Shown one piece after another: positions 2,944 to 23,258 of a stretch of DNA of 61,079 nucleotides. Each line of letters starts with the position of its first letter. The first letter of the stretch is position 1. Below the pieces are notes generated by a model that searched no databases, had not been told where the DNA came from, and saw nothing but the letters and a program-made list of their open reading frames with translations. Origin of the DNA: Candidatus Kuenenia stuttgartensis (lineage in GTDB: Bacteria; Planctomycetota; Planctomycetia; Planctomycetales; Planctomycetaceae); contig CAMAXD010000001.1 in NCBI GenBank assembly GCA_945861975.1, positions 1 to 61,079 of the forward strand. Reading direction: 5' to 3'. The position numbers and the translations under genes are program-made.

Positions 2944-3963
2944 TTAGTCCGGCAATAACATCCCGGTTCTTTGATCCAGGCCCAGCATGATATTCATATT
3001 CTGTACGGCAACTCCACTGGCCCCTTTGATCAAATTGTCAATCGCGGCAAACACGACCAACTGATCTCGATTGAAGCGGACTGAGATGTCACAGAAGTTT
3101 GTATATGAGACGTCTTTTGTGTTTGGGATATGATCAACAATTCGAATGAATGGCTGCCCAGCATAGAAGCTGCGGTAGATCTCCAGCAATTGACCGCGCG
3201 TCTGGGTCGCTTTCAAGCGAGGATAAATAGAACAGAAGATTCCTCGATCCATCGGCATCAGATGAGGATTGAAGGCAACCTGAACGTCGGCACCACAGAC
3301 ATCCGAGAGAACCTGTTCAATCTCTGGCGTATGTCGATGGTTGCCAATGCTGTACGCGGTCACAGACTCATTGCACTCAGAGAACAAGTTGGACAGTTTT
3401 GGCGTCCGCCCTGCTCCGCTGATGCCGCTCTTTGCATCGATAATGATTCCAGTGGGTTCAATCACTTTTGCCTGAAGCAGCGGAGCCAGAGCCAGAATGG
3501 ACGTACTGGTATAGCAACCAGGATTCGCAACCAGCTCCGCATTCGGAATACGATCGGCATAAATCTCCGGCAGGCCATAGACCGCAGTGCTCAGACGCGT
3601 CGGGTCCGTGTGAACATGCTCGTACCAGGTTTCATAAACGCCCGGATCTCGCAAGCGATAGTCCGCACTGAGATCAACAACGCGACAGCCGGCCTCAAGC
3701 AACTGCGGGATCGCCTCCATGCTCGCCGTGTGCGGCAGACAGCAGAACGCAATGTCACACAGCTTTCCGGCCTGCTCTGCCGAGAGGTTTTCGCATTGCA
3801 AATTGAACAGCCCTGTTAGCGACGGGTGAACTTCGCTCAAAAGGGGTTTGTTCTCCTGGCGAGTCGTCGCAGCAACAACTTCCGCCTGCGGATGGCGGGC
3901 GAGGATCTTCAGGAGTTCAAGAGCCGTGTAGCCGGTTGCACCGAGAATCGCGATTCGAGCCAT
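2944..3963 (-). CDS. argC: N-acetyl-gamma-glutamyl-phosphate reductase
   Basis: Reads [25 protein letters not shown] (NAD-binding GxTGYxG), NPGCYTTS-like active-site block ([10 protein letters not shown]), and C-terminal DNLIKGASG. Start taken at ATG 3961-3963. The upstream extension to 4128 has no homology-like character. Confidence 0.93.
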
Positions 3964-4425
3964 GTGGGTCGCCGTAGCGGAAAGAGGGGTTTGGGAAGAG
4001 TTGATAATCTTCGTGGCCTTGGAGTATAGAGGTCGACACCTGTCACTCAACGACAGCATATCAACCGTCCGGCAGTTTCTGCGGATTCGGAGTCTTCGGG
4101 TTACCCAAAAAAAGGCCGGAGAAGCCACATCGCCGCTCCGAGTCCCTGGAGCAAAAAACGCCTCCGCGACCGACGACCGCCTCGAAATCCGGCAGCGATA
4201 GCACGATCCAGGTCATTGGCCGCAGGATTTGCTCGTCTAGCACGCCAAAATACTTATTCAGCATCACGACCGGCGCTTTCAGCAGAAGTGTCAAATCCGG
4301 AATCATCCGCACATCCCTTACATTTTAACTCAACAGAACAGGTTTGAACCGCCGATCGATATGAGTAACCGTCACTGCCGGCGCATCCGGCACACATTCT
4401 CTGTACGGCTCGATCGGAACAATCG

Positions 4426-7400
4426 ATGAAACCCATACGAATCTTTGCCACGGCTTCTCTGATCATCAGCAGCGTTGCTCTGATAACAGCCGCCAGTATC
4501 TCCGTCGGAGATGAACCCGGTGTTGTCCGGATGGCAGCGTTTAAGCCACAGGACGGAGCAACTGCTCCGGCTCCGACACCGGATCCCGTTGGATCAGATG
4601 GTGTGGCTACCATGAATCAGCCAGAGGCTACCCCCGAGCTTTATCCTCAGCCCGGGAGTTACTCTCCTTACTTTGAGCGTTCATTTGCCGTGACGGAAGC
4701 CGTGCCAAACGTCTTCTATCAGCCGGTTCAGCCATTCGGCCCCATCGTCATGTTCGAAACGAACACCGATGACGGAATCGGATTCAACAATGGCTACCAG
4801 CGAGTGAATGCCCGATTGCCGTATCACATCATTCCTAACACGAATGTGCTGATCACGGATTTGTCGGCATCGGTAACATTCGACGGGTTGCCGGTCGCGA
4901 ATGGCGGCCTTGTGTACCGTCGCTACGACGACGCCTACAACCGCATTTTCGGTGTAAATGCCTTCCTCGATTACGACAAAGGATACGGCTACAACGAATG
5001 GTACCGGGGAACGCTGGGTTTTGAATCACTCGGTCGCTACGTCGACTTCCGTGCAAACGGTTATTTCATGCTGGGTGATGACACATCCATTTTGAGTAAC
5101 ACGCTGCTCGCAGGTCTGCAATTGCAGGGCAACAACGCATTTAATCAGCGTCAGCAGGTTGCTTCAAATGCCTACTCTGGATTCGACCTTGAAACTGGCG
5201 GACCAATCCCATTGCTTGGTCAGTATGGTCAAAACCTCTACGGCGGAGCCTACTACCTGACCAACAATAACGGTGGCGACACGGTTGGGTTCCAGGCTCG
5301 ATGGGAGGCCCTGATCACTCAGAACCTCACCGTCAACACACGCTTGACATCAGACGACACGTTTGGCACGAACATCTGGACGGCATTGCAGTACGAGATT
5401 CCGAACTACAAGGATCGAAGAATTCTGCGACCGCACTCTTCCGTGCGTGAACGCCTGCAGGATCCAGTGTATCGTCATAACCGAGTCCACGAAAGCATCG
5501 ATACGACGGTCACGCTGGAAGCCCTTGTCAACCATGGCGAAGACTTCAATAACAACGGGCTGCTGGATGCCGGCGAAGATATCGACTGCGACGGGATTCT
5601 GGATACAGGCAGTGCACTGCCCTACTTCCTGACCCATATTGATCCCAATGCAACCAACCCGGGTACAGGTACCGTTGAAGATCCATTCAGCACTCTTCAG
5701 GCTGCCGCTCTTGCGAACAATGCAGGCATCGATATTTTCCGAATTGCACCACGAGCCGACGACTCAGGTACGGGGCTGACAGTCAACGGCGGATTCTCTC
5801 TGTTTGATGATCAGATCATGTTGTCCTCGATCCAGGACTACAACCTCGGTGCTCCCGGCACAACCGGAAGCGTAATCCTCGGCGTTCCGACGACAACAAA
5901 TCTGGGACCACTGATCAGCAACCCCACGATGGGTGTTGGCGGCAGCGTGATTCATCTTGCCAATAACAACCGCGTCATTGGAATGCGACTCGACGGTGCG
6001 AATGCTGCCGGTACGATCTTCGGCGATGGCTTCCAGAATGCTTTGCCGATCACGAATTCCTACCTGACATCCAACGTTGTCACAAACTACTCAACTGGTG
6101 CAAATCTTCAGGATGTGTCCGGGAAAGTTGAGATTGTCGGCAATCAATTCAACGGCTTGCTGGGCCCATCAATTGATGGCCTCAACCTGTCTTCCGCTGC
6201 TGGAAGCGACACGGACCTGCTGCTGACAAACAACATCTCGAGCAACAACAGCGGTTCGGGTTTCGTTGTCACAGCGAAAGCTGGAAGTACAATTAACGCT
6301 GATGATCCCGACGGAGCTCATTGCGTGACCGGCATTTTGAACAACACCGCAAATGACAACGGTGCCGGTATGGTTATCGAAGCTCAGGCCGGAGCCACGA
6401 TCAATGCCGTTGTTGAAGGTAACACGACTCTCAGAAATACCTTCGACGGACTGTCCATGACTGCAGACGGCGGTACATTCAATCTGGCCAGCCTCTCAGG
6501 CAACACCTTCAGCCGAAACCTCAACAACGGCACTCTGATCCATTACCTGAATGGCGGACTGTTCCGCTCACTCTCAGAAGATCTTGATGGGGACGGAATT
6601 CTGGATGTTGGTGAAGACCTGAATGGCAACGAACGTCTCGACAGCGGCATCGTTTCCAACACGATGAACGACAATATTTTCGCAGGCCTTCAAATCACCG
6701 GTGAGGATGCCAGCGTCGGCGAATTCGACATCGGTGGACCAATGCCAACTCTGGGGAACACTTTTATAGGAAACTCTGAAGGAGGCATCCTTGTCGACCT
6801 GCAGGATCAGGCGACCGCACAAGTCGATGCGTTGTTCAACACGGTCACCGGTGGCAATGCAGTTCCGGGCCTCACGATCGTGCTTGACTTCATCGATCCG
6901 GGCCAGGCATCAGAAGTTGACATCAATGGATTCCAGGTAGACACCTTCGACGTCACAAACTACGGCTTCGCAGCCACAGACTTCGATCTGGTGACGAACT
7001 CCATTCTGGCAACCCTTCAGGAGTACTACAATAACCTGCCGACGGCAGCCGACGACGTAAGAAGCCCGATCCCTGCCGGTAGCGAACTTAATCTTGACTT
7101 CGTGATTGGAGATACCGGCGTCGCTCCTTCGAATGGCGCAACGGAGTATTACGTCATGACCATCGGTGACAGCCTTAATGCCCCAGCAGGATTGGGTGGT
7201 GCAGCAGGAGACATTGGCAATATCCGAAACGCTCTCGGGCAGGGTCCTGGTCAGGGGCTGTTCGGAACTCCACAGGCCAATGGAGCCTCTGCGATGGGTG
7301 TCTACACCAACAATGTTGTGAACGATTTCGGCCCCGGAATCAATCCGCCCAATGCATTCAATGGTGGCTTAACAGTGGACGTCAATGGCTCTGCTCCTTA

Positions 7401-10400
7401 CGCCATCACAGCACTGACTTCCGGAAACCTCACGTTTACCCGTCGAGCACTCGGTTTCGTTGCTGCACACGAACTGGGGCATACCCTCTCACTTCGACAC
7501 ATCCTTGCAGCGTCCGCTGTAACACCAACGGGCCGCCAGCCGATCATGGGCACTCCGGCCTTCGATCTGTCTGTTCAGGCACTTGTTGAGCCTGTAGAAT
7601 TTGCATTCTCCGGAACAAATCCTGGTGAAATTCCAGGCGAAGCACCGTTTGTTCAGAACGACATTGCTCAGCTTGCCAGTGCGATCGGGACTCGAGTCGC
7701 CGCTGGGGAAACGAAGAATGGTATTCGGGTGAATGCTTCCGACAACGCTCGACTGCTGGCATCAACTTTCAACAACAACACGATCACGGGTGCATCAGAC
7801 GATGGAATCGCCATCCTGATGAACGACAGTGCTGTGGCTGAAGGTGTCACAATTCAAACGAACACGATTATCAACGGTGGTGGCAACGGTATCCGACTCG
7901 TGGCTGACGGTCCGAATGCGGAGATTCACGCTGACAATACGATTGGCGGAAATGGCGTCAATGTCTACAACGGTGTGAACTTCAACCAGGGTAACATTAT
8001 CAATAACAACGACGGCGATGGCTTCCGGGCACTTGCCGCCAACAATGGCTTGATCCACGGTAACCTGATTAACAACACGATCACTGACAACGGTGGAAAC
8101 GGTGCTGCTCTGATGATCGACAACGGTGGCATTGTCGACTTCGGCACGGTAGCGAACAATCGAGTCATCCGTGGCAACACAATTACCGGAAACGGCGGAG
8201 CAGGCCTGTTGTTGAATCAACTAACAAACCCGAGTACTGAGACTCAACTGGACGCCACGGTTCTTGGGAATACGCTGTCGAACAACGCGGGCGGTGGCAT
8301 CCTGTCACGCCTGAACGGAGCCAACAACAATCCGCCTGCAGCACCGGTGACACCGAACAACAATCGTCTCAATCTGGTAGTAGGCGGCACAGCGGCCACA
8401 GACGCCAATACAATCAATGCCAACGGCGACGTGGGAATTGGTGTCGTGGTTGCCGGCAACGGCTCTGCAAACGTAGCGATCACAAATACGACCGTCACGG
8501 GCACAACGAATGGTGCTGATCCACTACTCAATGGATCAGGCATTCACTTCAACCGAGCTGACTCGTCTCTCCTGACAGCGACTCTCGACAATGTCACTTC
8601 AACAGGTAATGCAGGTGATGGTCTTCGAGTAGAAACCCAGGGCAGTGACAAGACAGATCCAAACCTTCCGATCCCGAACACTCCAAATACGGTGATTGTC
8701 ACAGACAGCGATTTCTCGAACAACACTCTGAATGGTGCGTTCTTCCAGACACGCGGCGATTCAACGCTGATTGGTAACATGTCCAACAGCCAGTTTACAA
8801 ACAATGGCCAGAACGGCATCGTTGTTCAAACGGCTGAGAACTCATCGTTCGGTGACCCGACCATCGGGCTTCCTCCTGGTCAACGCTCACTGTTCAATGG
8901 TCTGATTGTTGAAGACAACGGGAATGATGGCGTGCAGATTACGGCCACTCAGAATTCTCGTACTCTTCTGGAAATCAATAGTACTGTGAACCCAACAAGC
9001 ATCTCCAACAATGGCGGAGACGGAGTTGGGATTACCACGACCGGGGGTCGTTCAGATATCCTGATTACATCGGGTCTTTTACCGGCTGTCAGAACAACAA
9101 TCGACGGTAACGGCACCACGGCCGGCGGCAATGGTGTTCGATGGGATGCCAGCGGAGCATCCGAGGGTGTTGTGCGAGTCACAAAGACAGACATCCTGGG
9201 AAGCATCGCCGGAGCTTCTGAAGATCTCAACAACAACGGCGTTCTTGACGCAGGTGAAGATCTCAACAACAACGGTGACATTGATGTCGCCGAGGGTGAC
9301 GGCATTCAGGCCAACTTCTCTGAGAACGCGACAGCAACTTTGATTGTCGGTAACGTGGGAGAAGGAAACAGGATTCAGAATAATGAAGATGACGGTATCG
9401 CGATCACGGCAACCGGTTCTGATGTCACTGGAAACCCACGACCGATTATCACCATCACGGATAATATCATTGGTGGCACACTCAACGGCCTGCAGGCCGG
9501 GAATGGTGGAGACGGTGTCAGTCTGAACGTCTTCGGTGGTACCGCCGTTGGAATTGCCTCAGGTGCGGTTGATAACTCAATCACGGCAGCTTCACCAGGG
9601 ACAGACGCGTTCAACGGAAGACTGGGTGTCTCTGAAACAGGTGCAATTCCACAATTCACCATGACGGAGAATATTGTCAGCAACAACAACGGACGAGGCG
9701 TCAACATTGCTCTAACGGGTGCTTCTGGCCGACGAGATCGCGAATTCGGCAATGCAATCTTTGATCCTGTCCGCATCCGGCTTGACGATAACACGATCGT
9801 CTCGAACGGAGCAGAAGGCATGTTCTACCGAGCAGATTCTGACATGAACCAGAGTCGCTTTGTGTTCCTGCCGAACTTCCCGGATCCTCCATTTGTAGGC
9901 TTTGACAATCAGAACTTTAGTCCGTTTCAGGCACAGTTCTTCAACTTCAACGTTGGTAGCGTGAACGGAAACACCGCTTACCTGGCTCCATACCTGAACC
10001 TCAGAACTGTCCAGAACAGCTTGTTCACTGTGACAAATAACACTGTTCAGAACAATGGTGTGAACGGGGTCACAGGGGAAGGTATCCGCATCGACGTGGG
10101 AACAGGGGCTTACGTGGCTGCTGATATCCGTAACAATGCATTGGGAGGAAACCTGCAGGAAGACCTCGTCACATCATCCTTCTTGTCAGCCGGAAATACA
10201 TTTGACTCGGTTGATGATTCCGGTGACCTGACATTCGACTATGTCTATCTGGATGATACGGCTCAGCTCGACATGCGATTCCTGAACAATAGCGGTAATC
10301 AGGTGGCTCCAAGCGACTTCGGTGCCCTCTACACGAATGCGGACCCTCTGAAGACCCAGTTCTTCGGGAACATTGGAGTCACCCAGCGAGATGCGGGTCT

Positions 10401-10566
10401 GTTCCAGGTTGATAACGGACCAAACCTGAACAATCCAAACAACGTCTTCACAAACTTTGGAGTGACGCAGGATATTCAGGCAGCGTTCACAACTGGAAAC
10501 TACAACATCCGGGCTGCGGCCGATCCTGCCTTCCCGAACCTTGGCTTTGCTCCATTCCTCCCATAA
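4426..10566 (+). CDS. giant secreted protein: signal peptide, inverse-autotransporter-like beta-barrel region, parallel beta-helix repeat passenger with Ca-binding DxDxDG loops and a HEXXH...H zinc-protease-like motif
   Basis: Uninterrupted 2046-aa ORF. N-terminal signal-like MKPIRIFATASLIISSVALITAASI. Residues about 105-326 contain NGGLVYRR...GVNAFLDYD...RGTLGFESLGRYVDFRANGYF...SGFDLE...YGGAYY, which resembles the intimin/invasin beta-domain. Dozens of NxxxNNxxxGI/NGGxG beta-helix rungs follow. HELGHTLSLRH is at 7468-7500. Confidence 0.9.
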   Translation: MKPIRIFATASLIISSVALITAASISVGDEPGVVRMAAFKPQDGATAPAPTPDPVGSDGVATMNQPEATPELYPQPGSYSPYFERSFAVTEAVPNVFYQPVQPFGPIVMFETNTDDGIGFNNGYQRVNARLPYHIIPNTNVLITDLSASVTFDGLPVANGGLVYRRYDDAYNRIFGVNAFLDYDKGYGYNEWYRGTLGFESLGRYVDFRANGYFMLGDDTSILSNTLLAGLQLQGNNAFNQRQQVASNAYSGFDLETGGPIPLLGQYGQNLYGGAYYLTNNNGGDTVGFQARWEALITQNLTVNTRLTSDDTFGTNIWTALQYEIPNYKDRRILRPHSSVRERLQDPVYRHNRVHESIDTTVTLEALVNHGEDFNNNGLLDAGEDIDCDGILDTGSALPYFLTHIDPNATNPGTGTVEDPFSTLQAAALANNAGIDIFRIAPRADDSGTGLTVNGGFSLFDDQIMLSSIQDYNLGAPGTTGSVILGVPTTTNLGPLISNPTMGVGGSVIHLANNNRVIGMRLDGANAAGTIFGDGFQNALPITNSYLTSNVVTNYSTGANLQDVSGKVEIVGNQFNGLLGPSIDGLNLSSAAGSDTDLLLTNNISSNNSGSGFVVTAKAGSTINADDPDGAHCVTGILNNTANDNGAGMVIEAQAGATINAVVEGNTTLRNTFDGLSMTADGGTFNLASLSGNTFSRNLNNGTLIHYLNGGLFRSLSEDLDGDGILDVGEDLNGNERLDSGIVSNTMNDNIFAGLQITGEDASVGEFDIGGPMPTLGNTFIGNSEGGILVDLQDQATAQVDALFNTVTGGNAVPGLTIVLDFIDPGQASEVDINGFQVDTFDVTNYGFAATDFDLVTNSILATLQEYYNNLPTAADDVRSPIPAGSELNLDFVIGDTGVAPSNGATEYYVMTIGDSLNAPAGLGGAAGDIGNIRNALGQGPGQGLFGTPQANGASAMGVYTNNVVNDFGPGINPPNAFNGGLTVDVNGSAPYAITALTSGNLTFTRRALGFVAAHELGHTLSLRHILAASAVTPTGRQPIMGTPAFDLSVQALVEPVEFAFSGTNPGEIPGEAPFVQNDIAQLASAIGTRVAAGETKNGIRVNASDNARLLASTFNNNTITGASDDGIAILMNDSAVAEGVTIQTNTIINGGGNGIRLVADGPNAEIHADNTIGGNGVNVYNGVNFNQGNIINNNDGDGFRALAANNGLIHGNLINNTITDNGGNGAALMIDNGGIVDFGTVANNRVIRGNTITGNGGAGLLLNQLTNPSTETQLDATVLGNTLSNNAGGGILSRLNGANNNPPAAPVTPNNNRLNLVVGGTAATDANTINANGDVGIGVVVAGNGSANVAITNTTVTGTTNGADPLLNGSGIHFNRADSSLLTATLDNVTSTGNAGDGLRVETQGSDKTDPNLPIPNTPNTVIVTDSDFSNNTLNGAFFQTRGDSTLIGNMSNSQFTNNGQNGIVVQTAENSSFGDPTIGLPPGQRSLFNGLIVEDNGNDGVQITATQNSRTLLEINSTVNPTSISNNGGDGVGITTTGGRSDILITSGLLPAVRTTIDGNGTTAGGNGVRWDASGASEGVVRVTKTDILGSIAGASEDLNNNGVLDAGEDLNNNGDIDVAEGDGIQANFSENATATLIVGNVGEGNRIQNNEDDGIAITATGSDVTGNPRPIITITDNIIGGTLNGLQAGNGGDGVSLNVFGGTAVGIASGAVDNSITAASPGTDAFNGRLGVSETGAIPQFTMTENIVSNNNGRGVNIALTGASGRRDREFGNAIFDPVRIRLDDNTIVSNGAEGMFYRADSDMNQSRFVFLPNFPDPPFVGFDNQNFSPFQAQFFNFNVGSVNGNTAYLAPYLNLRTVQNSLFTVTNNTVQNNGVNGVTGEGIRIDVGTGAYVAADIRNNALGGNLQEDLVTSSFLSAGNTFDSVDDSGDLTFDYVYLDDTAQLDMRFLNNSGNQVAPSDFGALYTNADPLKTQFFGNIGVTQRDAGLFQVDNGPNLNNPNNVFTNFGVTQDIQAAFTTGNYNIRAAADPAFPNLGFAPFLP

Positions 10567-10729: not shown

Positions 10730-11305
10730 ATGCTGCATCTTCACTCAACATCGCCCGACCGGTGGCTTCTTCAGGTGAAACAACACCTCGCAGATGTCCT
10801 GATTGACCACGCGCACTGCGAACAGAAGGCCGCCTCAACGGCCATGGATCTGATGTTCGACTACGTCGAAAATGAAGATCTCTGCCATGAAATGACGGAA
10901 ATCGTTCGAGAAGAACTGGAACATTTTGAACTCGTCCGAAAACTGCTGAAAGACCGCGGCATTCGTTTTCTGCGACTCAAGCCCGGAACTTACGGACGGA
11001 AACTCAAGGAACTGGTTCGGCGTCAGGAACCACAGCGAGCTGTCGATCGCCTGCTGGTAGCAGCGTTGATTGAAGCTCGCAGTTGTGAAAGATTTGTGCT
11101 TCTAAGAGATCATCTGGAAGATCCTGCACTACAGGCATTTTACGGCAGCCTGTACGAGTCTGAAGCACGGCATCATGCAACCTATGTTCGTCTCGCAAAG
11201 CTATTCTCCGATGATCACTCTGTCAATCTGCGGCTGCAGGAACTGGCGGTGCTGGAAGCTGCAATTGTAGAGGAAGGCTGTGAGCTTCCTCGTGTTCATA
11301 GTTAA
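10730..11305 (+). CDS. miaE: tRNA-(ms2io6A)-hydroxylase
   Basis: Reads STSPDRWL...LIDHAHCEQKAASTA...EELEHFE...LIEARSCERF...YESEARHH, the di-iron MiaE family pattern as I recall it. 191 aa. Confidence 0.82.
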   Translation: MLHLHSTSPDRWLLQVKQHLADVLIDHAHCEQKAASTAMDLMFDYVENEDLCHEMTEIVREELEHFELVRKLLKDRGIRFLRLKPGTYGRKLKELVRRQEPQRAVDRLLVAALIEARSCERFVLLRDHLEDPALQAFYGSLYESEARHHATYVRLAKLFSDDHSVNLRLQELAVLEAAIVEEGCELPRVHS

Positions 11306-11387: not shown

Positions 11388-13535
11388 GTGGCTTTTCTCC
11401 ATGATTCCGGGAGCTCTGCGGGAGCCAGTCCCGATTGTGTTAGCCATTCCAAATACAATTCGCATGTCTTCCGTTTCCGTTGGTTCCCATCCGCAAATCT
11501 TTTTACGAGCCACAACGTGACATCTCCCAGCTCAGGTCATAACGAGTACGCTTTTATTCTTACCTGGGATGGAGCCAGCTGGCGTGACGTCGTACGGCTG
11601 CGTCAGGGCCACGTTACCACGATCGGTCGCTCGGCAACGAATCGGATTGTCCTTGAAGATGATGCCAGCAGCCGAAATCACTGCGAGATCTTCTTCTCCG
11701 ACAGTGAATGGCGCCTGCGTGATCTGAAGAGCCGGAACGGTACGAGCGTCCGCGGAAAGACCGTTTCCGGCGACTTCACTTTGCAGTCGGGTGATGTGAT
11801 CAGCATCGGTGAATGTCGACTGGCATTTACTACAAGCCTGGAATCAGCGCCGGTTTCTCCGCCTGGATTGCCAGGGGCACCGGGTGAGCGGGCGACGTCG
11901 CCGACGCAAGCGGCCGTCAGCCATGAACGCGAGCCCAGCATTCTGCATCGAACGGCGAAACCTGAATTCCTGTCCCCGGGCGCGGCCTCAGGAAGTGCCC
12001 TCAATTATGGTGCTGAGCTGGCCAAGCTGTATGGACTTGGACTTGAAATGGGGGCCGCCAAAACTCGCCAGCAACTGACCGATGTTGTCCTGGTCAGCCT
12101 CGCCCGTGAAACGGTTGCCAGCATCTCCGCCATTCTGCTTGCGTCGCAGGAAGCCAGCGGCCCGCCGATGCCATCTGACCTTCAGGTTGTCGCCTATCAC
12201 AGCTTGAAAGATCTGCCCTATCGACGAGTCTCCGACAACCTTTCCCGCGTTGTTCTCTCGCGCCGCGAAGCCATCCTCGCGCGCGACGTTGGTGATGATC
12301 GTCAATTGTCAGTGTTTGACAGCCTCGGAGAAATGAAAGCGCTCAGTGTCATCTGTGCGCCGATCACCTCGGCCGAACGCGTTCTCGGATTGATTCATCT
12401 GTACTCGACAAATCCTGACAATCCGCTGGATAAACATGATCTCGAATTTACACTCGCAGTGGCTAATCAGCTCGCCGTTTCACTTGGGCACCTTCAGGAA
12501 CGCGACTCGCTTCAAACAGGCCTGGCTCAGGCTCGCAGTGTTAACGAATCTCTGCGCTCTCAATTGTCGCAGGAACAAAACCTGATCGGCGAAACCGCCA
12601 GCATGACAGAGCTGAAGGAACGTATCTCGCTGATCGCCGAAACTCACGCCAATGTTTTAATTCGTGGTGAGAGCGGCTGTGGAAAAGAACTGATCGCGCG
12701 GAGCATTCATTCGCTTAGCCCACGAAAAGATGCGCCGTTTGTCTGCATCAATTGTGCGGCGCTGAATGAAAGTCTTCTGGAGAGTGAACTGTTCGGCCAC
12801 GAAAAAGGTGCCTTTACCGGCGCGGTGGATCGCAAAATCGGTCGCTTCGAACAGGCTGATGGCGGCACGTTGTTCCTTGATGAAGTCGGCGAAATGAGTC
12901 CTTCGATTCAGGCAAAGTTCCTGCGAGTTCTGGAAGGCTATGCGTTTGAGCGAATTGGTGGGCGCAAACTGATCCAGGTGAATGTTCGCATCGTGGCCGC
13001 TACGAATCGAGATCTCGAAGAGGCAGTCGAAGATGGCGACTTCCGTAAAGACCTCTATTTTCGCCTGCAGGTGGCTGAGATCACGGCCAGCCCGCTTCGT
13101 GAACGTCGAGATGACATTGAATTACTGGCCAACGCTTTCCTAAAGAAGTTTGTTGAGAAAACCGGTCGCGTCATCAAGGGCTTCACAGACGACGCGATGC
13201 AGATCCTGCGGGAATACAACTGGCCGGGCAATGTTCGAGAGCTTCAGAACACGATCGAAAGAACTGTAATTCTCTGTCGAAACGAAGTCGTTCGCGTTTC
13301 CGACATTCAGTTGTCCAGCCTGGGCAGTCGTCCTGCTGCCCCGGTCGTTGATCGTGGTACTCCCGGAGAATACCGTGAAGTTTCAATGGCCGATATTGAA
13401 CAGGAACATATCCTGAAAACCCTGGAACACACCGGTTGGAATAAGTCCAGGTCTGCTCAGATCCTGGGAATCGAGCGATCCACTCTGGACCGAAAACTGA
13501 AGCGATATCATTTCCCTCCACCTCTGACAGACTGA
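11388..13535 (+). CDS. sigma-54-dependent transcriptional activator with N-terminal FHA and GAF domains
   Basis: FHA block (TIGRS...SRNHCEI...NGTSV). GAF-like middle. AAA+ sigma54 core ([45 protein letters not shown]). C-terminal Fis-type HTH ([23 protein letters not shown]). The start is uncertain: ATG 11388 or in-frame GTG 11517. Confidence 0.9.
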
Positions 13536-13705: not shown

Positions 13706-13979
13706 AAACCAGTTGGTCGCATTCTGCACAGTTCTGACGCCAGGGGATGACAACTGTCCTGCGGTTCGAATTCTGCGTCAGCCGATTCACAACATGTGCG
13801 ATGGAGATCCCACGCCAGACAGAAGGACTGCATCGAATCTGGTAGAAGATGCCGGGATTTTCCGCTCGGCAAAACCCCGGCTATGTTCGCGATGGTGGCC
13901 AGTTGATTGAGTCATCGAGATTACTAAGAAGTAGGCTTCAGTGGCTTGTCTTTCCGGGGAACGACAACGGGGCTTCTCT

Positions 13980-14462
13980 ATGCTTCAGTTAATCTACACC
14001 AGTGAAGCGAAAAACAACTTCTCGCCCAGTGAACTGCAGAACCTGCTGCTGACCGTACGACGCAACAATGACCGTGACGCCATCACGGGCATGTTGCTTT
14101 ACGAGGATGGCACGTTCCTGCAGGTTCTTGAGGGTGAAAACGACGTTATCGAGTCCACCTACCAGCGAATTGCTGCTGACAAGCGACACCACAAGATCAT
14201 GCTGATTGCCCGTTTCGAAATCGACCACAGATCGTTTCACGATTGGGAAATGGGGTTCTTTGATGCCTCCGGTGGCAAACTGTTGCAACTGCCGGGATAC
14301 AGCAATTTCCTCAGCAGGAAAACAGTCGAGTTGGAGAACCTGGAAGACGGCGATAAGGCGCGGGAAGTTCTCCTGAACTTTAAGCTGGGTGCGTGGCACA
14401 GACATTCATCGCCCTTGCACGCAGCGAATCCACACCACTCCTCAACGCACCATGAACTTTAG
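13980..14462 (+). CDS. BLUF-domain blue-light photoreceptor (stand-alone, short)
   Basis: Reads MLQLIYTSEA...ITGMLLYEDGTFLQVLEGE...FHDWEMGF, which carries the conserved Tyr, Gln and Trp/Met of BLUF. Start placed at ATG 13980 rather than the GTG at 13941. Confidence 0.85.
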   Translation: MLQLIYTSEAKNNFSPSELQNLLLTVRRNNDRDAITGMLLYEDGTFLQVLEGENDVIESTYQRIAADKRHHKIMLIARFEIDHRSFHDWEMGFFDASGGKLLQLPGYSNFLSRKTVELENLEDGDKAREVLLNFKLGAWHRHSSPLHAANPHHSSTHHEL

Positions 14463-15511: not shown

Positions 15512-18445
15512 TCAGGCGCTCTGGAACGACGAGGCCAGCTGCTCGATCTGATCGAGGAGCGCATTAATCTCATCTTCTAGTCCTGGCAAGGCCCGCTTTG
15601 CCTCGTCAAGATTGCCTGACACCACGGAAAGTTCGAGGGTCTTTGCATAATTCCGGAGACGAGTCCCGGCGAGATTGCCAGCACAGCCCTTGATGGTGTG
15701 TGCGACTTTCTTTGCAACCGGAGCGTCGTTAGCAGCGAGAGCAGTACTAAAAGCGGCAATGTGTCGAGGGGCATCGTCGCGGAAAGCACCAGCCAGAATT
15801 TCGATCAGTTCCTGATCGCCACCGACCCGGCTCATCAGTTCTTCACGGTTCAGAATTGCATCAGAGGCCGCATTGACCGGGGGATCGGCAACAGAACAAG
15901 CAGGATCTACTTCTGCCGCAACCACTGCATTCAACTCTTTGCCAGTCGGTTCGCTGGTGTCGGTCAGAAAAACTGAGTTCGCCCCAGGCTGTGGCTCCAA
16001 CTGCAACGGCAACGGCAGATAGCGAGACAACGTTGCGTACAACCCAGCAAAGGAAATCGGTTTCGTCACAAAATCATCCATCCCGCAGAATAAACATTTC
16101 TCCCGATCTCCGGCCATTGCATTGGCCGTCAGTGCAAGAATCGGCAGGCGATGCCCTGCCCTTGCTTTCCTTTCTGCCTTTCGAATCAACCGCGTTGCCT
16201 CGTAACCGTCCATTGTCGGCATCTGACAATCCATAAGGACGGCGTCGAACGTTTCAGTATTGAGAACTCGCACGGCTTCACTACCATCGGCAGCAATCGT
16301 GACCTCGAATCCGTCTTTGGCAAGCACTCTCATCATCAGTTGCTGGTTGACGAAATTATCTTCGACAACCAGTAGTCGACCTCGCGATCCCTGAACCTGC
16401 GAAACCTGTTCAGCCGCGACTGGAGTGGTCGACACTTCCTCAACGGCTGTATCCAGCGTAAGAATCGTCTCCAGCAACTCGGACTGATTCACTGGTTTAG
16501 TCAGATAGGCACAGATCTTTGCGTTCTTAAGACGAATACGGTGGTGAGCTGTATCGGACGAACTCAACAGGATCACTCTTGTGTCGCGTGCGCAAGACAG
16601 ACTGGCGATCATTTCAGCGACTGCAAATCCATCCATTTCCGGCATATGAACGTCCAGCAGAACAAGGCTGAATTGATTGCCGGACCGGTCAGCCGCCTCA
16701 AGTGCTTCGCGAACCAGCCTTCCCTGATCGACGGTTTCTACGTCCATTCGCCAGACTGTCAAAATCTCCTGCAGGATGAGACGGTTCGTTGGATTGTCAT
16801 CAACGACAAGAACTCGTTGTCGAGGCAGGGAATCGCACTTCTGATCCGGTGAATTTGCAATCTCCTTCGTGGCTTCATCAAGCGGTATTCGGAACGAGAA
16901 CGTACTTCCTGTTCCGGGTAGACTCCGGACGCGAATTCGACCGTTCATCAGATCCACAAGTCGAGTACAGATTGCAAGTCCCAGTCCTGTGCCACCATAG
17001 TGTCGCGTTGTACTTCCGTCAGCCTGAACGAAAGCTTCGAAGATTGATTCCTGTCGCTCCAGCGGGATACCAATACCCGTATCTCGAACCGAGAATTCCA
17101 ATTCGCGGAGATTCTCCTCCGTTGTGACATCAGCAACAGTCACTGCAACTTCACCATGATGCGTAAATTTGATGGCATTGCCGACCAGGTTGACCAGTAC
17201 CTGACGAATTCTTCCTGCGTCGCCCAATAAATGACGCGGCACTGTAGGCAGAAATCTACAGGTCAATTCCAGCCCTCTCTGTTCCGCCCGCAAACCTAAC
17301 AGCTTCATCACATTGCCGACGACTTCGCGAGGTTCAAACTCGGTCTTGTCGATCTGCAGCATGTTGGCTTCGATCTTGGAGAAGTCGAGAATATCATTCA
17401 AAACATTCATCAGGGCTTCCCCCGACGACACAACCAACTCAAGGTTTCTTCTTTGTTCTGCAGAAATCGGGGTCTGCAGCAACAGTTCCGTCAGCCCTAG
17501 AATGCCATTCATCGGAGTCCGGATTTCATGACTCATGTTCGCCAGAAACTCACTCTTAGCTCGACTTCCCTGCTCCGCCGCATCACGGGCAACGATCAGC
17601 TCAGCATTCAGGTCACTCAGCGATTCCGCTTGTTTTCTTAGCTCGCGACTCAACTTCGCCCGTTGCCTCAACTCGGCCTGCATAACTCCCACAGTGCTGC
17701 TGCTACCCATCACCGTCAGCAGTAGCGTCATCGCAAATCCAAGGATCGCAGACCGAGCCCAAAGAATCGACGCAACCCACTCGAAGCCATCAAAATCAAC
17801 ACCAACGATTCCATCAGGCTGTCCGTGCTGGTCGAAAATCGGAGCGTAAGAACTAACCCACGTCCCCCAGCGATCGGTGTACGGCACATCGTCAAAGTAT
17901 GTGCCGGGAGAATCACTGCGAAGTGCGGCCAGCAGAAGTGACGAAGGATCCTTGTAGATCTCCCCAATCGTTGTTCGCTGTTCGCGAAGCTCGTCGATGG
18001 TTCCGTTGTTGTTATAGTCTGTCTCAGAATCCACAAGCAGCCGCAGATTCCCATCCTCGCAGCGTCTGATCGTGTAAACATCATCAACGGTTTTACTAAA
18101 ACTCAGCCACTTAACTTCTTTGTTCAGCAGCATCAGGTAGGTCGGATCGTCTGCCGGTGTGAACTCGGAAATATTGTAGTGACCGTGCTCACGCATTTCA
18201 TCGGCGTAGCCCGTCGCAAATCCGTCAATCGAACTGCGCAATTGCGCGCGTTCAGTTTCCCCACATCGTATCGCGAGATAAACGCTGCCGCAGATCAGAA
18301 TCAGCGCTGAACTTCTGAGAGCGCCACGCTGCCTTTTGTCGAACGAACGACTGAAAAAATAGTGATCAGCCAGCAGTACCCCAACGAGCGTCAGAACTGC
18401 AAATGTGATGACGTCAAGATTCCATTGCAGGATCAGATTAAACAT
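15512..18445 (-). CDS. hybrid sensor histidine kinase (TM / Cache-like sensor / HisKA-HATPase / two receiver domains / Hpt)
   Basis: Reads [17 protein letters not shown] (H-box), GTGLGLAI (G2), two D-containing receiver blocks ([10 protein letters not shown]...[11 protein letters not shown]; [10 protein letters not shown]...[11 protein letters not shown]), and Hpt [12 protein letters not shown]. Start taken at ATG 18443-18445, ahead of a TM segment. The ORF stays open to 18841, so the start is uncertain. Confidence 0.9.
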
Positions 18446-18883
18446 GGAGCACGCTACTCGAAACAAAGGCCCCGGATCGCCTTTCAGCAAACCGTTGAAC
18501 AACAAGTACGGAATCCCCGACGAGATTAATCTCAAAGTAGTGAATGGCAGGATCTCTTCGCAGACATTGGCATTCGATCGAAGAGATCCAACATGACAAA
18601 TGTGTTGTCCACTTCCTGATTGCAGCGTTTTTTGTTCCGTTCGGCCCAAATTCGACCTGATAACGACGCCTCTCAACACGCTCAGCGGGATTATGCGACG
18701 CGAATTCACCAGACAGGTTGTAACGATTAGCACGGAATGTACGTCTTTTGTGGATGACAAATCGACAGCCGCAGTCGGTGATTGTCCAAAAACCTTCTTC
18801 TCTGTACGCACGTTGAAATTCTGCGACCTAGGTTTAAACATAGTCGGGCACGTAGATTCGGAAATTGAGGTGCTCCCGCTGCG

Positions 18884-21166
18884 TTGAAAATTTCACTCCC
18901 CTCACTCTGGTCGCGTCAGCAGGTCGATCCCGTGCAGTTAACTGGACAACAGCCCACGGCTAAGCTCGCAGACAAGTCGTCCGCTCAAGGCGTGTTGTCC
19001 TTGCCAGGTGAACGCGCGTTGGTGCTGGTGGTTGATGACGAGCGAATCAATCGCGAGATCCTGAGCCGGATGCTGTCACGCAATGGGCATGATGTCCTGA
19101 CTGCCGATAGTGGCGAAGCTGCACTTGAGCGTCTCGAAGAACAATTACCTGATCTGGTTCTGCTGGATGTCATCATGTCCGGCATGAGCGGATTTGACGT
19201 CCTGAAATCCATTCGCTCTCGATATCCTGACGGCGCGCTGCCCGTCATTATGGTTACGGCCGAAGCTGAACGAGAGAATGTTGTTCGAGCCTTCGCCGAA
19301 GGGGCTAATGACTACCTCACAAAGCCACTTGATCCCCAGATTACGCTGGCCCGCGTTTCTCTTCAGCTAAAGCTCAGCAGCGCCCTCTCTGAACTGAAAC
19401 GCAGTCAGGAACGTTATGCACTCGCGGCACAAGGTTCCCGGATAGGTCTCTGGGACTGGGATGTTGCTCAACGACAGATCTTTCTTTCGGCACGCTGGAA
19501 AGAGATGCTGGGCTACAGCGACAACGAACTGGATTCTTCTGTAGATTCCTGGTTTGAACGTATCCATATCGAAGATCGAGAACAGTTCACCGAATTGCTC
19601 GGAAGCCGCAGTTCACTGGAGCATGGTCGCTTCGAGACAGAAATTCGGATGCGTCATCGCGACGGCACTTTCCGCTGGATGCTGTGCAGCGGAGTTGTTC
19701 AGTCCGATACAAACGGTATACCTCGACGTCTGGCTGGTTCCCTGGCCGATGTTACCGAGGGGAAGGTTCGAGATGTCCTGACCGGCTTGCCGAATCGTCT
19801 GCTGTTTGAAGAGCAATTGAATCGGGTTCTGCATCTGGATCAGGCAACCTTTGGCTTCTCTGCCATTTTGTTTCTGGACCTCGACAACTTTAAACTGGTC
19901 AACGACAGTCTGGGCCATGACGCTGGCGACCTGCTCCTGTGCAGTGTTGCCAAGAAACTGGAGAGCTGTTTGCGTCAGACGGATGTCGTGGCCAGAAATC
20001 ACACGAAATGGTCCGTCGCACGACACGGTGGAGACGAATTCACGGTCCTGCTGCATTGTCTGCAAAGCCAAATTGACGCAGAAATAGTCGCAGAGCGTCT
20101 CATCGCAGCGCTCTCTGAGCCCTTCGCGGTGGGTGTTCATGAAGTCGCCGTCGGGGTCAGCATCGGGATAGCTTTTGGTGGTGGTGATGGCAAATCAGCT
20201 GCCGATGCAATTCGCGAAGCGGACACGGCCATGTACTACGCCAAGACAGGCGGCCGAGGTGGCTATCGCATTTTTGATCCGGAGATGCAAACAGTTGCTT
20301 CTGCCAGGCTGGCACTTGAATGTGATCTGCGCCAGGCTATCAAGAGTCATCAGTTCTACCTTGAGTACCAGCCTATCGTTCGACTCGCGACTGGCAGGGT
20401 TGAAGGATTCGAGGCCCTGTGTCGATGGAACCATCCGCGCGGCGAACGAGTCGGACCAGATGTCTTCGTGCCCGTCATTGAGTCGCTTGGTCTCATCGGT
20501 CGCCTCGGACGCATTGTTCTCGAACTGGCTTGCGATCAGGTTCAGGAATGGAATCGCAACCGTGCGGTCGATAATCTTGTCAGCGTTACCGTCAACTGTT
20601 CATCGGGAGAATTCGGGCAGCCACTGTTCCGAAACGATTTGCTGATGACCGTTGCAAGGGCGGGAATTGATCCCGGAATGCTGAAGATCGAAGTGACCGA
20701 GAGCACTCTGATGCAAAATCCGGAACTCGTCCAACAGATCATCAGTGAACTTCGCGACGCCGGGATTCGCATCGGAATCGATGACTTCGGAACAGGCTAC
20801 TCGTCACTCGCTTACCTGCATCGACTGCCGCTGGACCTGCTGAAAATTGACAAGTCGTTCGTAAGCAACATGCACACCTGCACCGATACACGGGAAATCG
20901 TCCGCACGATCATTGCGCTGGCGCAGAGCCTGAATCTTGATGTTGTTGCCGAAGGTGTTGAAACTCCGGAACAGCAACGACTGCTATTCGAAATGGGATC
21001 GACGCACGCTCAGGGTTACCTATACTCAAAACCGATGCCCGGCGATTCCGTTGAAGGCTTCCTTGGAAATTACAGCCCCCTGCTTCCGCCATCGCAACGC
21101 CGGAGACCTCATGAAAAAATCGAACAGCATCTCGAACTGGCTGCTGATTTGTTGACCCAGGAATAG
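18884..21166 (+). CDS. response regulator with PAS, GGDEF and EAL domains (c-di-GMP turnover)
   Basis: Receiver ([14 protein letters not shown]...[11 protein letters not shown]...K), PAS (RWMLCSG), GGDEF ([11 protein letters not shown]), EAL (FEALCRW...EVTES...DDFGTGYSS...KIDKSF). There is no in-frame ATG before the receiver, so TTG 18884 is assumed. Confidence 0.9.
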
Positions 21167-23057: not shown

Positions 23058-23258
23058 GCTAAATGTGAATGAACACGCAAAATGATGCCAAATTGCATCA
23101 TTGTCCTGATCTTCGGGAACTGAACTATTGATCGCGGCTCACCCTCCAAAGGGAAATCGGTGAAACCAGAAACACTTTCTGGCGACAACCTGTAAGATGC
23201 GGCTACCCTGCACAGTCAAATTCAGATAGCCCCGCCCTTGCCTGCCGATCCAGATTAC

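What the first reader, a model, noticed from the sequence alone, without database searches (positions are those of the whole stretch)
4426..10566. 2046-aa protein combining an intimin/invasin-like N-terminal beta-barrel with a parallel beta-helix passenger
After a signal peptide, residues about 105-326 (nt about 4738-5403) carry a string that closely tracks my memory of the inverse-autotransporter beta-domain consensus. The hallmark stretch at nt 4951-5064 is NGGLVYRR / GVNAFLDYD / RGTLGFESLGRYVDFRANGYF / SGFDLE / YGGAYY, against consensus NlGlGyR / G.NaFyDyD / R.GvGaEyw.dylklsaNgY / G.Dl / Y.qYyG. Classical type Ve passengers are chains of Ig-like (Big) domains ending in a lectin domain. Here the roughly 1700-aa passenger is instead built from dozens of right-handed beta-helix rungs (NNxIxxNxxxGI), the fold typical of classical type Va autotransporters. 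It also has Ca-binding loops and a protease-like motif. If the barrel assignment holds, this is an unusual hybrid architecture in a phylum where outer-membrane secretion is poorly characterised.
Basis: partly seen in the sequence, partly recalled or inferred. Interest (0 to 1): 0.7.

Follow-up and report, generated by a model that had tools for sequence, protein, structure and literature searches.

The report
Planctomycete inverse autotransporter with beta-helix passenger
This 2046-residue gene most likely encodes an outer-membrane surface protein of a freshwater planctomycete: an intimin/invasin-type barrel at the front and a long beta-helix stalk carrying a swappable protease-like module, a design that is real but already annotated and widespread in this bacterial group.

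Summary
ORF 4426-10566 (+) encodes 2046 aa. Residues 144-277 hit Pfam IAT_beta above its curated cut-off (E 1.7e-9). An AlphaFold model of residues 1-400 finds the invasin and intimin barrels as its three best PDB matches (E 1e-9 to 8e-8, TM 0.70), well ahead of all other barrels. The passenger hits Pfam Beta_helix (E 4e-12), and two modelled stretches fold as three-strand rungs at pLDDT 76-97.

It is not rare or new. The barrel profile finds 3417 protein clusters, mostly 1300-3200 aa; 19 of 25 sampled carry Beta_helix. Seventy related loci, nearly all labelled Planctomycetota, hold it. NCBI names orthologues "inverse autotransporter beta domain-containing protein". Heinz et al. 2016 reported invasin_beta barrels fused to pectin-lyase-fold passengers.

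Two refinements:
- The helix is the PbH1/NosD sugar-enzyme type, not the pertactin type, so I see no sign of a Va/Ve recombinant.
- The centre (residues about 815-1090) is an autonomous metzincin-like module (HExxHxxSLxH plus Met-turn). In close relatives it is replaced by a NIDO domain or an unknown domain between 92-100% identical flanks.

Verdict: new member of a known kind. No member of the beta-helix group has, to my knowledge, been characterised experimentally.

The parts
4426..10566 (+). Whole gene, 2046 aa plus stop; apparently monocistronic, divergent from asd upstream and followed by miaE
4426..4503 (+). Sec-type signal peptide (res 1 to about 26): MKPIR, then a hydrophobic stretch and AAS. 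No lipobox Cys.
   Evidence: Read from the sequence; modelled as helix 3-24; conserved in orthologues. No signal-peptide predictor was available, so the cleavage site is inferred.
4504..4650 (+). Pro/Ala-rich variable spacer, presumably periplasmic (res 27-75), beginning with the conserved ISVGDEPGVVRM. No LysM domain.
   Evidence: Alignment; pLDDT below 50; no Pfam hit
4651..5532 (+). Conserved inverse-autotransporter beta-domain block (res 76-369). Barrel strands run from about res 124 to 324, followed by the linker (res 325-369) with a short helix at 340-345 and a strand at 356-366.
   Evidence: Pfam IAT_beta E 1.7e-9; conserved block; AF2 model; Foldseek best hits 4e1t, 4e1s, 5g26; family profile's only PDB sequence hit is invasin 4e1t
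5542..5604 (+). First double DxDxDG-type acidic loop (res 373-393), an insertion absent from most orthologues
   Evidence: motif level only
5623..6861 (+). Beta-helix N-cap (IDPNATxxGTGTVEDPFSTLQAA...) and first stalk (res 400-812). It includes a DxDxDG-type motif at res 719-727 (nt 6580-6606) within an acidic Asp/Gly-rich loop running to about res 741.
   Evidence: AF2 pLDDT 76-97 over res 532-812 with a three-strand rung pattern; fold matches are all right-handed beta-helices but weak; rung motifs
6868..7695 (+). Central autonomous module (res about 815-1090), metzincin-like. Zinc motif HELGHTLSLRH at res 1015-1025 (nt 7468-7500); conserved Met-turn PIMGT about 20 residues later.
   Evidence: The same module sits at the N-terminus of the unrelated protein P0027. 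It is replaced in relatives. AF2 confidence is low here.
7696..9825 (+). Second beta-helix stalk (res 1091-1800). It holds the best Pfam Beta_helix stretch (res 1173-1300) and a third acidic loop pair at res 1600-1620.
   Evidence: (res 1102-1250 at pLDDT 68-96)
9826..10563 (+). Conserved C-terminal domain (res 1801-2046) ending in ADPAFPNLGFAPFLP. No Pfam match. It would be the distal tip and the last part secreted.
   Evidence: 44-96% identity across full-length orthologues and a conserved terminal motif; a consensus C-terminal region also appears in the alignment of distant members; no Pfam hit

Best explanation
The gene encodes a type Ve (inverse autotransporter) style outer-membrane surface protein of a freshwater Planctomycetaceae bacterium.

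Proposed mechanism:
1. A Sec signal peptide takes the chain to the periplasm.
2. Residues about 124-324 insert into the outer membrane as an intimin/invasin-like barrel of probably 12 strands.
3. The linker (res 325-369) runs back through the pore.
4. The roughly 1680-residue passenger is threaded out from N to C and folds outside. It forms a rigid right-handed PbH1-type beta-helix stalk interrupted by acidic, probably calcium-binding loops.
5. The stalk displays a central metzincin-like zinc-protease module and a conserved C-terminal tip.

The likely role is a cell-anchored protease and adhesin. The central working module is exchanged by recombination between lineages: metzincin-like in 29 of 37 full-length orthologues, an unknown domain in 6, and a NIDO domain in 2.

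Shown: the domain identities, their order, the size of the family and the mosaic centre. Inferred: membrane topology, translocation through the barrel's own pore, metal binding, catalysis and biological role.
For: Barrel:
- Pfam IAT_beta scores 38.1 bits against a cut-off of 22.3. Thirteen of 25 distant family members also hit it, best E 5.9e-17.
- The family profile's only PDB sequence hit is invasin 4e1t.
- The AF2 model has pLDDT 60-84 over res 150-320. Its best Foldseek hits are invasin 4e1t (E 1.1e-9, TM 0.70) and intimin 4e1s and 5g26. The next fold, FapF, scores only 5e-4.
- The strand count fits 12 if strands 237-260 are read as one kinked strand and the low-confidence strand 107-113 is left out. 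That is my reading.
- A helix at 340-345 and a strand at 356-366 follow the barrel, as in the intimin linker.

Order: the barrel lies N-terminal to the passenger in essentially all hits.

Passenger:
- Pfam Beta_helix, E 4e-12.
- High-confidence rungs in the AF2 model.
- Every fold hit is a right-handed beta-helix.
- Rung motif 27 times against 4.5 expected.
- Only 2 Cys in 2046 residues. This is typical of passengers that cross the outer membrane unfolded (established knowledge for type V).

Protease module:
- HExGHxxSLxH is invariant and a Met follows about 20 residues later in 36 orthologues.
- All 77 PDB hits of its profile are metzincins, the best being MMP-16 at E 0.0043.
- Pfam metzincin families match members.
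- Leishmanolysin (M8) or matrixin (M10) domains occur in other family members.

Mosaic centre.
Against: - The IAT_beta match covers only profile positions 81-191 of 279.
- The first barrel strands (res 107-150) are modelled at pLDDT 37-59, and overall pLDDT is 52.6.
- I could not inspect coordinates, so barrel closure and the path of the linker through the pore are not verified.
- Foldseek matches for the passenger model are weak; the best E is 6.6e-3.
- The metzincin assignment rests on about 55 residues. The rest of the module has no recognised relative and was modelled with low confidence.
- The canonical Gly of HExxHxxGxxH is Ser here.
- No experimental data were found for any member.
- No BAM, TAM or chaperone gene is nearby, though none is required to be.
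Confidence: 0.8

Rival explanations
1. The protein is an inverse autotransporter, but the passenger works on carbohydrates. The PbH1-type beta-helix itself would be a polysaccharide lyase, epimerase or glycan-binding surface, as in alginate lyases, AlgG/AlgE and phage tailspikes. The central module would be accessory.
For: The helix matches Pfam Beta_helix and, in relatives, NosD. The best fold matches are PL6 alginate lyases, mannuronan C-5 epimerases, GH87 glucanase and tailspikes. From general knowledge, planctomycetes are noted polysaccharide degraders.
Against: Fold matches are weak (E at least 6.6e-3) and reflect the generic fold. No CAZy-type catalytic motif was identified; for example, no DPHD. 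The helix segments are conserved like a scaffold, while the centre is the part that varies.
Confidence: 0.15
2. The central metzincin-like module is catalytically dead and serves as a binding or adhesion head. On this view it is functionally interchangeable with the NIDO and unknown cassettes found in its place.
For: It is replaced by NIDO, an adhesion-type domain, or by an unknown domain in close relatives. The motif has Ser in place of the canonical Gly. Only the zinc helix and Met-turn are recognisable. The AF2 model is poor.
Against: His-Glu-His-His and the downstream Met are invariant across orthologues down to 35% module identity, and in the unrelated protein P0027. That is the expected pattern for a maintained active site.
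Confidence: 0.25
3. The N-terminal barrel is only a membrane anchor or a pore for something else. The large C-terminal part stays in the periplasm or leaves by another route.
For: Topology was not tested. [quoted passage not shown]
Against: The passenger is fused in cis. It has almost no Cys. It starts straight after a conserved linker. No partner or other secretion genes are adjacent. The whole large family keeps the order barrel then giant beta-helix.
Confidence: 0.05
4. The barrel similarity is chance or compositional, and the N-terminus is not a beta-barrel.
For: The Pfam hit is partial, and a single-sequence search of PDB sequences found nothing relevant.
Against: The Pfam score is above the curated cut-off in this protein and in 13 of 25 relatives. 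The independent fold search ranks invasin and intimin first by four orders of magnitude or more.
Confidence: 0.02

Closest known systems
Intimin (EHEC EaeA) and invasin (Yersinia), type Ve inverse autotransporters; beta-domain structures 4E1S and 4E1T
   Same: N-terminal signal peptide, then a Pfam IAT_beta barrel, then a linker, then a large C-terminal passenger. The predicted barrel fold superposes best on these two structures.
   Different: About 15% identity over the barrel. There is no LysM periplasmic domain. The passenger is a PbH1-type beta-helix with a metzincin-like insert instead of Big/Ig-like domains capped by a C-type lectin. The host is an environmental planctomycete, not an enteric pathogen.
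The invasin_beta plus 'pectin lyase' (IPR011050) group of the inverse autotransporter superfamily noted by Heinz et al. 2016 (PMC4943183, section 10 and Fig. 6)
   Same: The same architecture in outline: an IAT barrel fused to a pectin-lyase-fold (right-handed beta-helix) C-terminal domain.
   Different: The paper gives no sequences or taxa in the text I could read, and its supplements are not held. I therefore cannot show that this protein belongs to that exact group. The central swappable module is not mentioned in the passages retrieved.
Classical type Va autotransporters with beta-helix passengers (pertactin, Ag43, AIDA-I; SPATEs with a protease domain)
   Same: A 12-strand barrel plus a long beta-helical passenger that can carry a protease, with very few Cys. 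Ag43 appears among the weak fold matches.
   Different: The domain order is inverted. The barrel belongs to the IAT family, not the Autotransporter family; AIDA-I and EspP barrels score only 6e-4 or worse. The helix matches PbH1/NosD models, and no autotransporter passenger family was matched. The protease is a metzincin placed mid-stalk, not an N-terminal serine protease.
Metzincin zinc proteases (matrixins M10, adamalysins M12B, leishmanolysin M8, Pfam DUF4953 Met-zincin)
   Same: An HExxHxxxxxH zinc site followed by a conserved Met.
   Different: Ser replaces the canonical Gly. Similarity is limited to about 55 residues. The preceding 190 residues of the module have no known relative.

Membership tests
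Inverse autotransporter (type Ve) superfamily | Match to the Pfam IAT_beta (PF11924) beta-domain above the curated threshold | tested here: met
   38.1 bits against a cut-off of 22.3, E 1.7e-9, but only profile positions 81-191 of 279. Thirteen of 25 relatives also match, best E 5.9e-17.
Inverse autotransporter (type Ve) superfamily | Barrel fold like intimin/invasin (12 strands) | tested here: met
   The AF2 model's top three PDB matches are 4e1t, 4e1s and 5g26 (E 1.1e-9 to 7.5e-8, TM 0.69-0.70 on the target), with the next fold at 5e-4. Confidence is moderate (pLDDT 60-84 in the core, under 60 in the first strands). The count of 12 strands is my reading of the DSSP string.
Inverse autotransporter (type Ve) superfamily | Inverted order: signal peptide, then barrel, then passenger at the C-terminus | tested here: met
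   Barrel at res about 100-330 of 2046. The same position is seen in the listed family hits.
Inverse autotransporter (type Ve) superfamily | Linker with a short helix occupying the barrel pore | tested here: inconclusive
   A conserved segment at res 326-369, with a predicted helix at 340-345 and a strand at 356-366, follows the last barrel strand. pLDDT there is 47-62, and coordinates could not be inspected.
Inverse autotransporter (type Ve) superfamily | Passenger exposed on the cell surface, with BAM/TAM-dependent assembly | not testable with these tools
   No proteomic or experimental data were found. No BAM or TAM gene lies in the window.
Intimin/invasin proper (classical type Ve adhesins) | Passenger made of Big_1/Big_2 Ig-like domains ending in a C-type lectin-like domain (Intimin_C) | tested here: not met
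   No Big or Intimin_C hit even at E up to 10; Beta_helix is found instead.
Intimin/invasin proper (classical type Ve adhesins) | Periplasmic LysM domain (present in intimin, optional in the superfamily) | tested here: not met
   No LysM hit. Res 27-75 are Pro/Ala-rich and predicted disordered.
Classical type Va autotransporters | C-terminal Autotransporter beta-domain (PF03797) and a pertactin/AIDA/PATR-type passenger | tested here: not met
   No such Pfam hit. The C-terminal 246 aa have no Pfam match. Va barrels rank far below invasin in the fold search.
Right-handed parallel beta-helix (PbH1 / pectin-lyase fold) proteins | Pfam Beta_helix match and a three-strand rung architecture | tested here: met
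   E 4.1e-12, five stretches. AF2 rungs at pLDDT 76-97. All fold matches are beta-helices, though weak. Rung motif is enriched sixfold over shuffles.
Metzincin metalloproteases | HExxHxxGxxH zinc site plus Met-turn within a metzincin catalytic fold | tested here: inconclusive
   The motif (with Ser in place of Gly) and the downstream Met are invariant in 36 orthologues. DUF4953 scores 24.9 against a cut-off of 24.2 on a segment, and 21.8 on the whole protein. PDB profile hits are all metzincins, but the best E is 0.0043. The fold was not confidently modelled.

The most novel reading that the evidence does not exclude
This family may be a natural cassette-display system. It has a conserved barrel, two conserved beta-helix stalk halves and a conserved tip, and these frame a central slot. 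Lineages swap unrelated working modules into that slot by recombination: metzincin-like, NIDO or an unknown domain. Cassette history does not follow flank history: the L004 and L011 NIDO cassettes are 84% identical, while their barrels are 97% and 66% identical to the window's. The family would also be the natural test of whether vectorial beta-helix folding can drive secretion in the N-to-C direction. That question has so far been studied only C-to-N, in type Va.
Probability: 0.35. Interest if true: 0.55.

Novelty: new member of a known kind. Interest (0 to 1): 0.35.

Why it matters
It confirms that planctomycetes carry a large, conserved family of type Ve-like surface proteins. That supports the view that they have a conventional outer membrane with barrel-based secretion.

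The family offers two experimental openings. First, it is a beta-helix passenger that would be secreted in the inverse direction, which is useful for testing folding-driven secretion models. Second, it has a conserved scaffold whose central module is naturally exchanged, which is of interest for surface-display engineering and for understanding how environmental bacteria diversify their exposed proteins.

None of this changes current concepts. The architecture has been noted in the literature and is annotated in public databases.

Tried and rejected
- NCBIfam scan of the whole protein and of res 1-400: no hit.
- Single-sequence phmmer of res 1-400 against PDB sequences: only irrelevant weak hits to carbamoylases. 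The nine-sequence profile was needed to bring up invasin, and that hit is still weak at E 0.093.
- Exact-sequence look-up of the window protein in the assemblies index: not on record, so the source contig was not identified directly. The closest loci are lake MAGs at 98% identity over the barrel block.
- Supplements of Heinz et al. 2016, wanted to learn which taxa form their pectin-lyase group: not held.
- AF2 of res 373-1250: the central module and res 373-494 came out at low confidence, so there is no fold evidence for the metzincin assignment. Foldseek on that multi-domain model gave no hit at E 0.001 or better.
- Promoter and terminator scans around the gene: counts are within about 1.5 sd of the shuffle means.
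- Search for a second copy or silent cassettes in the window: none.
- Search for adjacent BAM, TAM or chaperone genes: none. The two PQQ_2 (BamB-like propeller) ORFs, 35 kb and 38 kb downstream of the gene's stop codon, are generic propellers and I do not count them as evidence.
- Idea that the gene is a recent Va/Ve fusion: rejected, because neither the barrel nor the helix matches type Va families.
- Idea that the locus is a conserved operon: rejected. Synteny with asd, miaE and the sigma-54 activator holds only among close relatives.


Full report
**1. The observation**

The ORF is real and sits exactly where stated: 4426..10566 on the + strand, ATG start, 2046 codons. All the quoted peptide strings are present. 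They span residues 159-277 (nt 4900-5256).

Base composition is even across the window (GC 0.51-0.55). Nothing marks the gene as foreign.

**2. The N-terminal domain**

Pfam IAT_beta (PF11924) matches residues 144-277 with 38.1 bits (curated cut-off 22.3) and E 1.7e-9. The match covers only profile positions 81-191 of 279. NCBIfam has no model for it, and a single-sequence search of PDB sequences finds nothing relevant.

Eight close homologues were found (44-63% identity over the N-terminal region). Two are named by NCBI [quoted passage not shown]. Their alignment shows a tightly conserved block from residue 76 to 369. A profile of that block has a single PDB sequence hit, the invasin beta-domain 4e1t. 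The hit is weak (E 0.093) but falls on the same strands as the Pfam match.

An AlphaFold2 model of residues 1-400, built on a nine-sequence alignment, has the following features:
- mean pLDDT of only 52.6, because residues 1-126 and 368-400 are disordered;
- pLDDT of 60-84 across residues 150-320;
- a run of antiparallel strands from 107 to 324, then a short helix (340-345) and a strand (356-366).

Foldseek against the PDB puts invasin 4e1t first (E 1.1e-9, TM 0.70 on the target). Intimin 4e1s (1.9e-8) and 5g26 (7.5e-8) follow. The next fold, FapF, scores 5.4e-4, and type Va barrels such as AIDA-I and EspP score 6e-4 or worse.

The strand count fits 12 if strands 237-249 and 251-260 are read as one kinked strand and the low-confidence strand 107-113 is left out. 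That is my inference. I could not inspect coordinates, so barrel closure and the path of the linker are not verified.

**3. The passenger**

Pfam Beta_helix (PF13229) matches with E 4.1e-12 in five stretches, the best at residues 1173-1300.

An AF2 model of residues 373-1250 gives pLDDT 76-97 for residues 532-812 and 68-96 for 1102-1250. Both stretches show the repeating three-strand pattern of helix rungs. Every one of the top 50 PDB fold matches is a right-handed beta-helix protein: PL6 alginate lyases, AlgE4/AlgG epimerases, GH87 glucanase, phage tailspikes and Ag43. None reaches E 0.001, probably because much of the model is disordered.

A loose rung motif occurs 27 times in the passenger against 4.5 +/- 2.3 in shuffles.

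The helix is thus of the PbH1/NosD type. No Pfam autotransporter passenger family matches. Combined with the barrel result, the protein shows no sign of being a Va/Ve recombinant. It resembles type Va only in overall design.

Only two cysteines occur in 2046 residues. This fits a chain that crosses the outer membrane unfolded (established knowledge for type V passengers).

Five DxDxDG-type acidic motifs fall in three clusters: residues 373-393, a single motif at 719-727, and 1600-1620. No calcium-binding Pfam family matched, so calcium binding is a motif-level inference.

**4. The central module**

Residues about 815-1090 interrupt the helix. The zinc motif HELGHTLSLRH lies at residues 1015-1025.

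Evidence that it is metzincin-like:
- Pfam DUF4953 (Met-zincin) scores 21.8 bits on the whole protein, below its 24.2 cut-off. It scores 24.9 bits on a 300-residue segment, just above. Weaker hits to matrixin, M57 and reprolysin models fall on the same place.
- Across 36 orthologues, HExGHxxSLxH and a Met about 20 residues downstream (PIMGT) are conserved.
- A 15-sequence profile of the module hits 77 PDB sequences. All are metzincins, the best being MMP-16 at E 0.0043, with alignment through the Met-turn.

Only about 55 residues are recognisable, and AF2 modelled the module poorly. "Metzincin-like, probably an active zinc protease" is therefore a reasoned inference and not a demonstration.

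The module is autonomous. It also occurs, at 43% identity, at the N-terminus of P0027, a protein with FG-GAP, VCBS, dockerin-type and SpaA-type domains and no barrel.

**5. Relatives and spread**

A scan of one genome per GTDB species returned 70 loci. Nearly all are from MAGs labelled Planctomycetaceae, Planctomycetota or Fuerstiella, many from lakes (Erken, Lac Pavin; others carry ME-prefixed lake-series isolate names). Three loci (L001-L003) are 97-98% identical over the barrel block.

Reading the ORFs gives 37 full-length orthologues of 1836-2155 aa with the same segment order. They share a conserved C-terminal motif, ADPxFPNxGFxPFLP. A more distant set has 31-37% barrel identity and lengths of 1350-1730 aa.

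An exhaustive profile search of 1.84 billion cluster representatives found 3417 proteins at E 0.001 or better, 1428 at 1e-10 and 200 at 1e-30. Most listed hits have the barrel near residues 50-400 of a 1300-3200 aa protein. Pfam families among 25 sampled members:

| Pfam family | Members matching (of 25) |
|---|---|
| Beta_helix | 19 |
| IAT_beta | 13 |
| NosD | 3 |
| NIDO | 2 |
| Peptidase_M8 (leishmanolysin) | 2 |
| Peptidase_M10 (matrixin) | 1 |

The named members are from Planctomycetota. One full-length orthologue (MFN9719024.1) is already annotated as an inverse autotransporter beta domain-containing protein.

**6. Mosaic centre (my addition)**

In 50-residue bins, L002 and L004 are mostly 92-100% identical to the window protein over residues 1-500 and from about 1250 (L002) or about 1500 (L004) to the C-terminus. 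In the centre, identity drops to 38-78% for L002 and 10-48% for L004.

In L004 the centre is a NIDO domain (Pfam E 1.7e-20). Among the 37 full-length orthologues, the centre is metzincin-like in 29, an unknown domain in 6 and NIDO in 2.

The NIDO cassettes of L004 and L011 are 84% identical to each other, yet their barrels are 97% and 66% identical to the window's. Cassette history and flank history therefore disagree. This points to recombinational exchange of the exposed module. No formal recombination test was run.

**7. Context**

| Window position | Strand | Gene or domain |
|---|---|---|
| 2944-4128 | - | asd (aspartate-semialdehyde dehydrogenase), upstream and divergent |
| 1578-2933 | - | enolase-superfamily gene |
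| 10730-11305 | + | miaE, downstream |
| 11388-13535 | + | FHA-GAF sigma-54 activator |

Further downstream lie a BLUF protein, a methyltransferase and a hybrid histidine kinase.

None of these relates to secretion. No BamA, TamA or Skp-type gene lies anywhere in the 61 kb window. Synteny is kept only among close relatives. The window holds no second copy or silent cassette.

**8. Mechanism**

The most likely route is Sec export, then BAM/TAM-assisted insertion of the N-terminal barrel, then hairpin formation by the linker. The passenger would then be threaded out from N to C. The conserved N-cap (IDPNATxxGTGTVEDPF...) would fold first outside and seed the helix. The finished protein would be a rigid stalk bearing a zinc-protease-like head mid-way and a conserved tip.

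The domain facts are shown. Topology, secretion route, metal binding and catalysis are inferred from the known behaviour of intimin and invasin and of type V passengers.

**9. What is already known**

- Heinz et al. 2016 (PMC4943183) reported a defined group of invasin_beta proteins with a C-terminal "pectin lyase" (IPR011050) domain and compared them with pertactin.
- General type V reviews still describe type Ve passengers as Ig-like plus lectin (PMC6555100).
- I found no experimental study of any beta-helix inverse autotransporter.

**10. Verdict**

The structural interpretation is supported, but the claim of unusualness is not. This is a new member of a known, database-annotated kind.

Two refinements stand: the PbH1-type helix shows no type Va ancestry, and the central module looks naturally exchangeable. 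The second deserves a formal recombination analysis.

Interest is 0.35.

Noticed in passing
L004 res 830-1040; L011 res 830-1039; L009, L015, L022, L033, L045, L048 centres: Orthologues replace the metzincin-like centre with a NIDO domain or with an unknown domain of about 230 aa that has no Pfam match. The NIDO cassettes of L004 and L011 are 84% identical although their barrels are 97% and 66% identical to the window's.
   Followed up: partly
P0027 res 44-290: The same metzincin-like module (43% identity) sits at the N-terminus of a 1299-aa protein that has FG-GAP, VCBS, dockerin-type, GEVED and SpaA-type domains and no barrel. The module therefore moves between architectures.
   Followed up: partly
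L005 and L007 (both MAG JBIIIF01, ME2001-08-28pf bin45): One MAG carries two copies with 92-96% identical barrels. L005 has the unknown-type centre. L007 lies in the asd-syntenic position but is cut before the centre. These may be paralogues or two strains binned together.
   Followed up: no
L012, L017, L026 (titled 'uncultured Chitinophaga sp.'); L027, L053, L054 (titled 'Candidatus Kuenenia'): These loci hold 56-62% identical orthologues of a protein otherwise seen only in Planctomycetaceae and Fuerstiella MAGs. The organism names in these record titles look unreliable.
   Followed up: no
window 4504-4539 (res 27-38) and 10519-10563 (res 2032-2046): Two short motifs are strongly conserved across orthologues without a known role. 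ISVGDEPGVVRM follows the signal peptide directly. ADPxFPNxGFxPFLP forms the extreme C-terminus.
   Followed up: partly
window 46012-48195 (+) and 48417-50081 (+): Two adjacent ORFs of 727 and 554 aa carry PQQ_2 (BamB-like) beta-propeller repeats. They lie 35 kb and 38 kb downstream of the gene's stop codon, and no link to it was found.
   Followed up: no
window 23238-24608 (+) and 24663-28142 (+): A HlyD-family membrane-fusion protein followed by an AcrB-type RND transporter. No outer-membrane factor gene was seen next to them among the ORFs scanned.
   Followed up: no
window 53454-54674 (-): A 406-aa ORF with Tad_C and VWA domains (TadG-like), suggesting a Tad/Flp pilus locus nearby.
   Followed up: no
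window 58688-60964 (-) and 42859-43761 (-): ORFs of 758 and 300 aa have no Pfam hit at E 1e-5 or better.
   Followed up: no
window 11388-13535 (+), 13941-14462 (+), 15512-18841 (-), 18884-21166 (+): A dense signalling cluster lies just downstream of the gene: an FHA-GAF sigma-54 activator, a BLUF blue-light sensor, a hybrid histidine kinase with Hpt, and a REC-PAS-GGDEF-EAL protein. The sigma-54 activator stays next to the gene in close relatives.
   Followed up: partly
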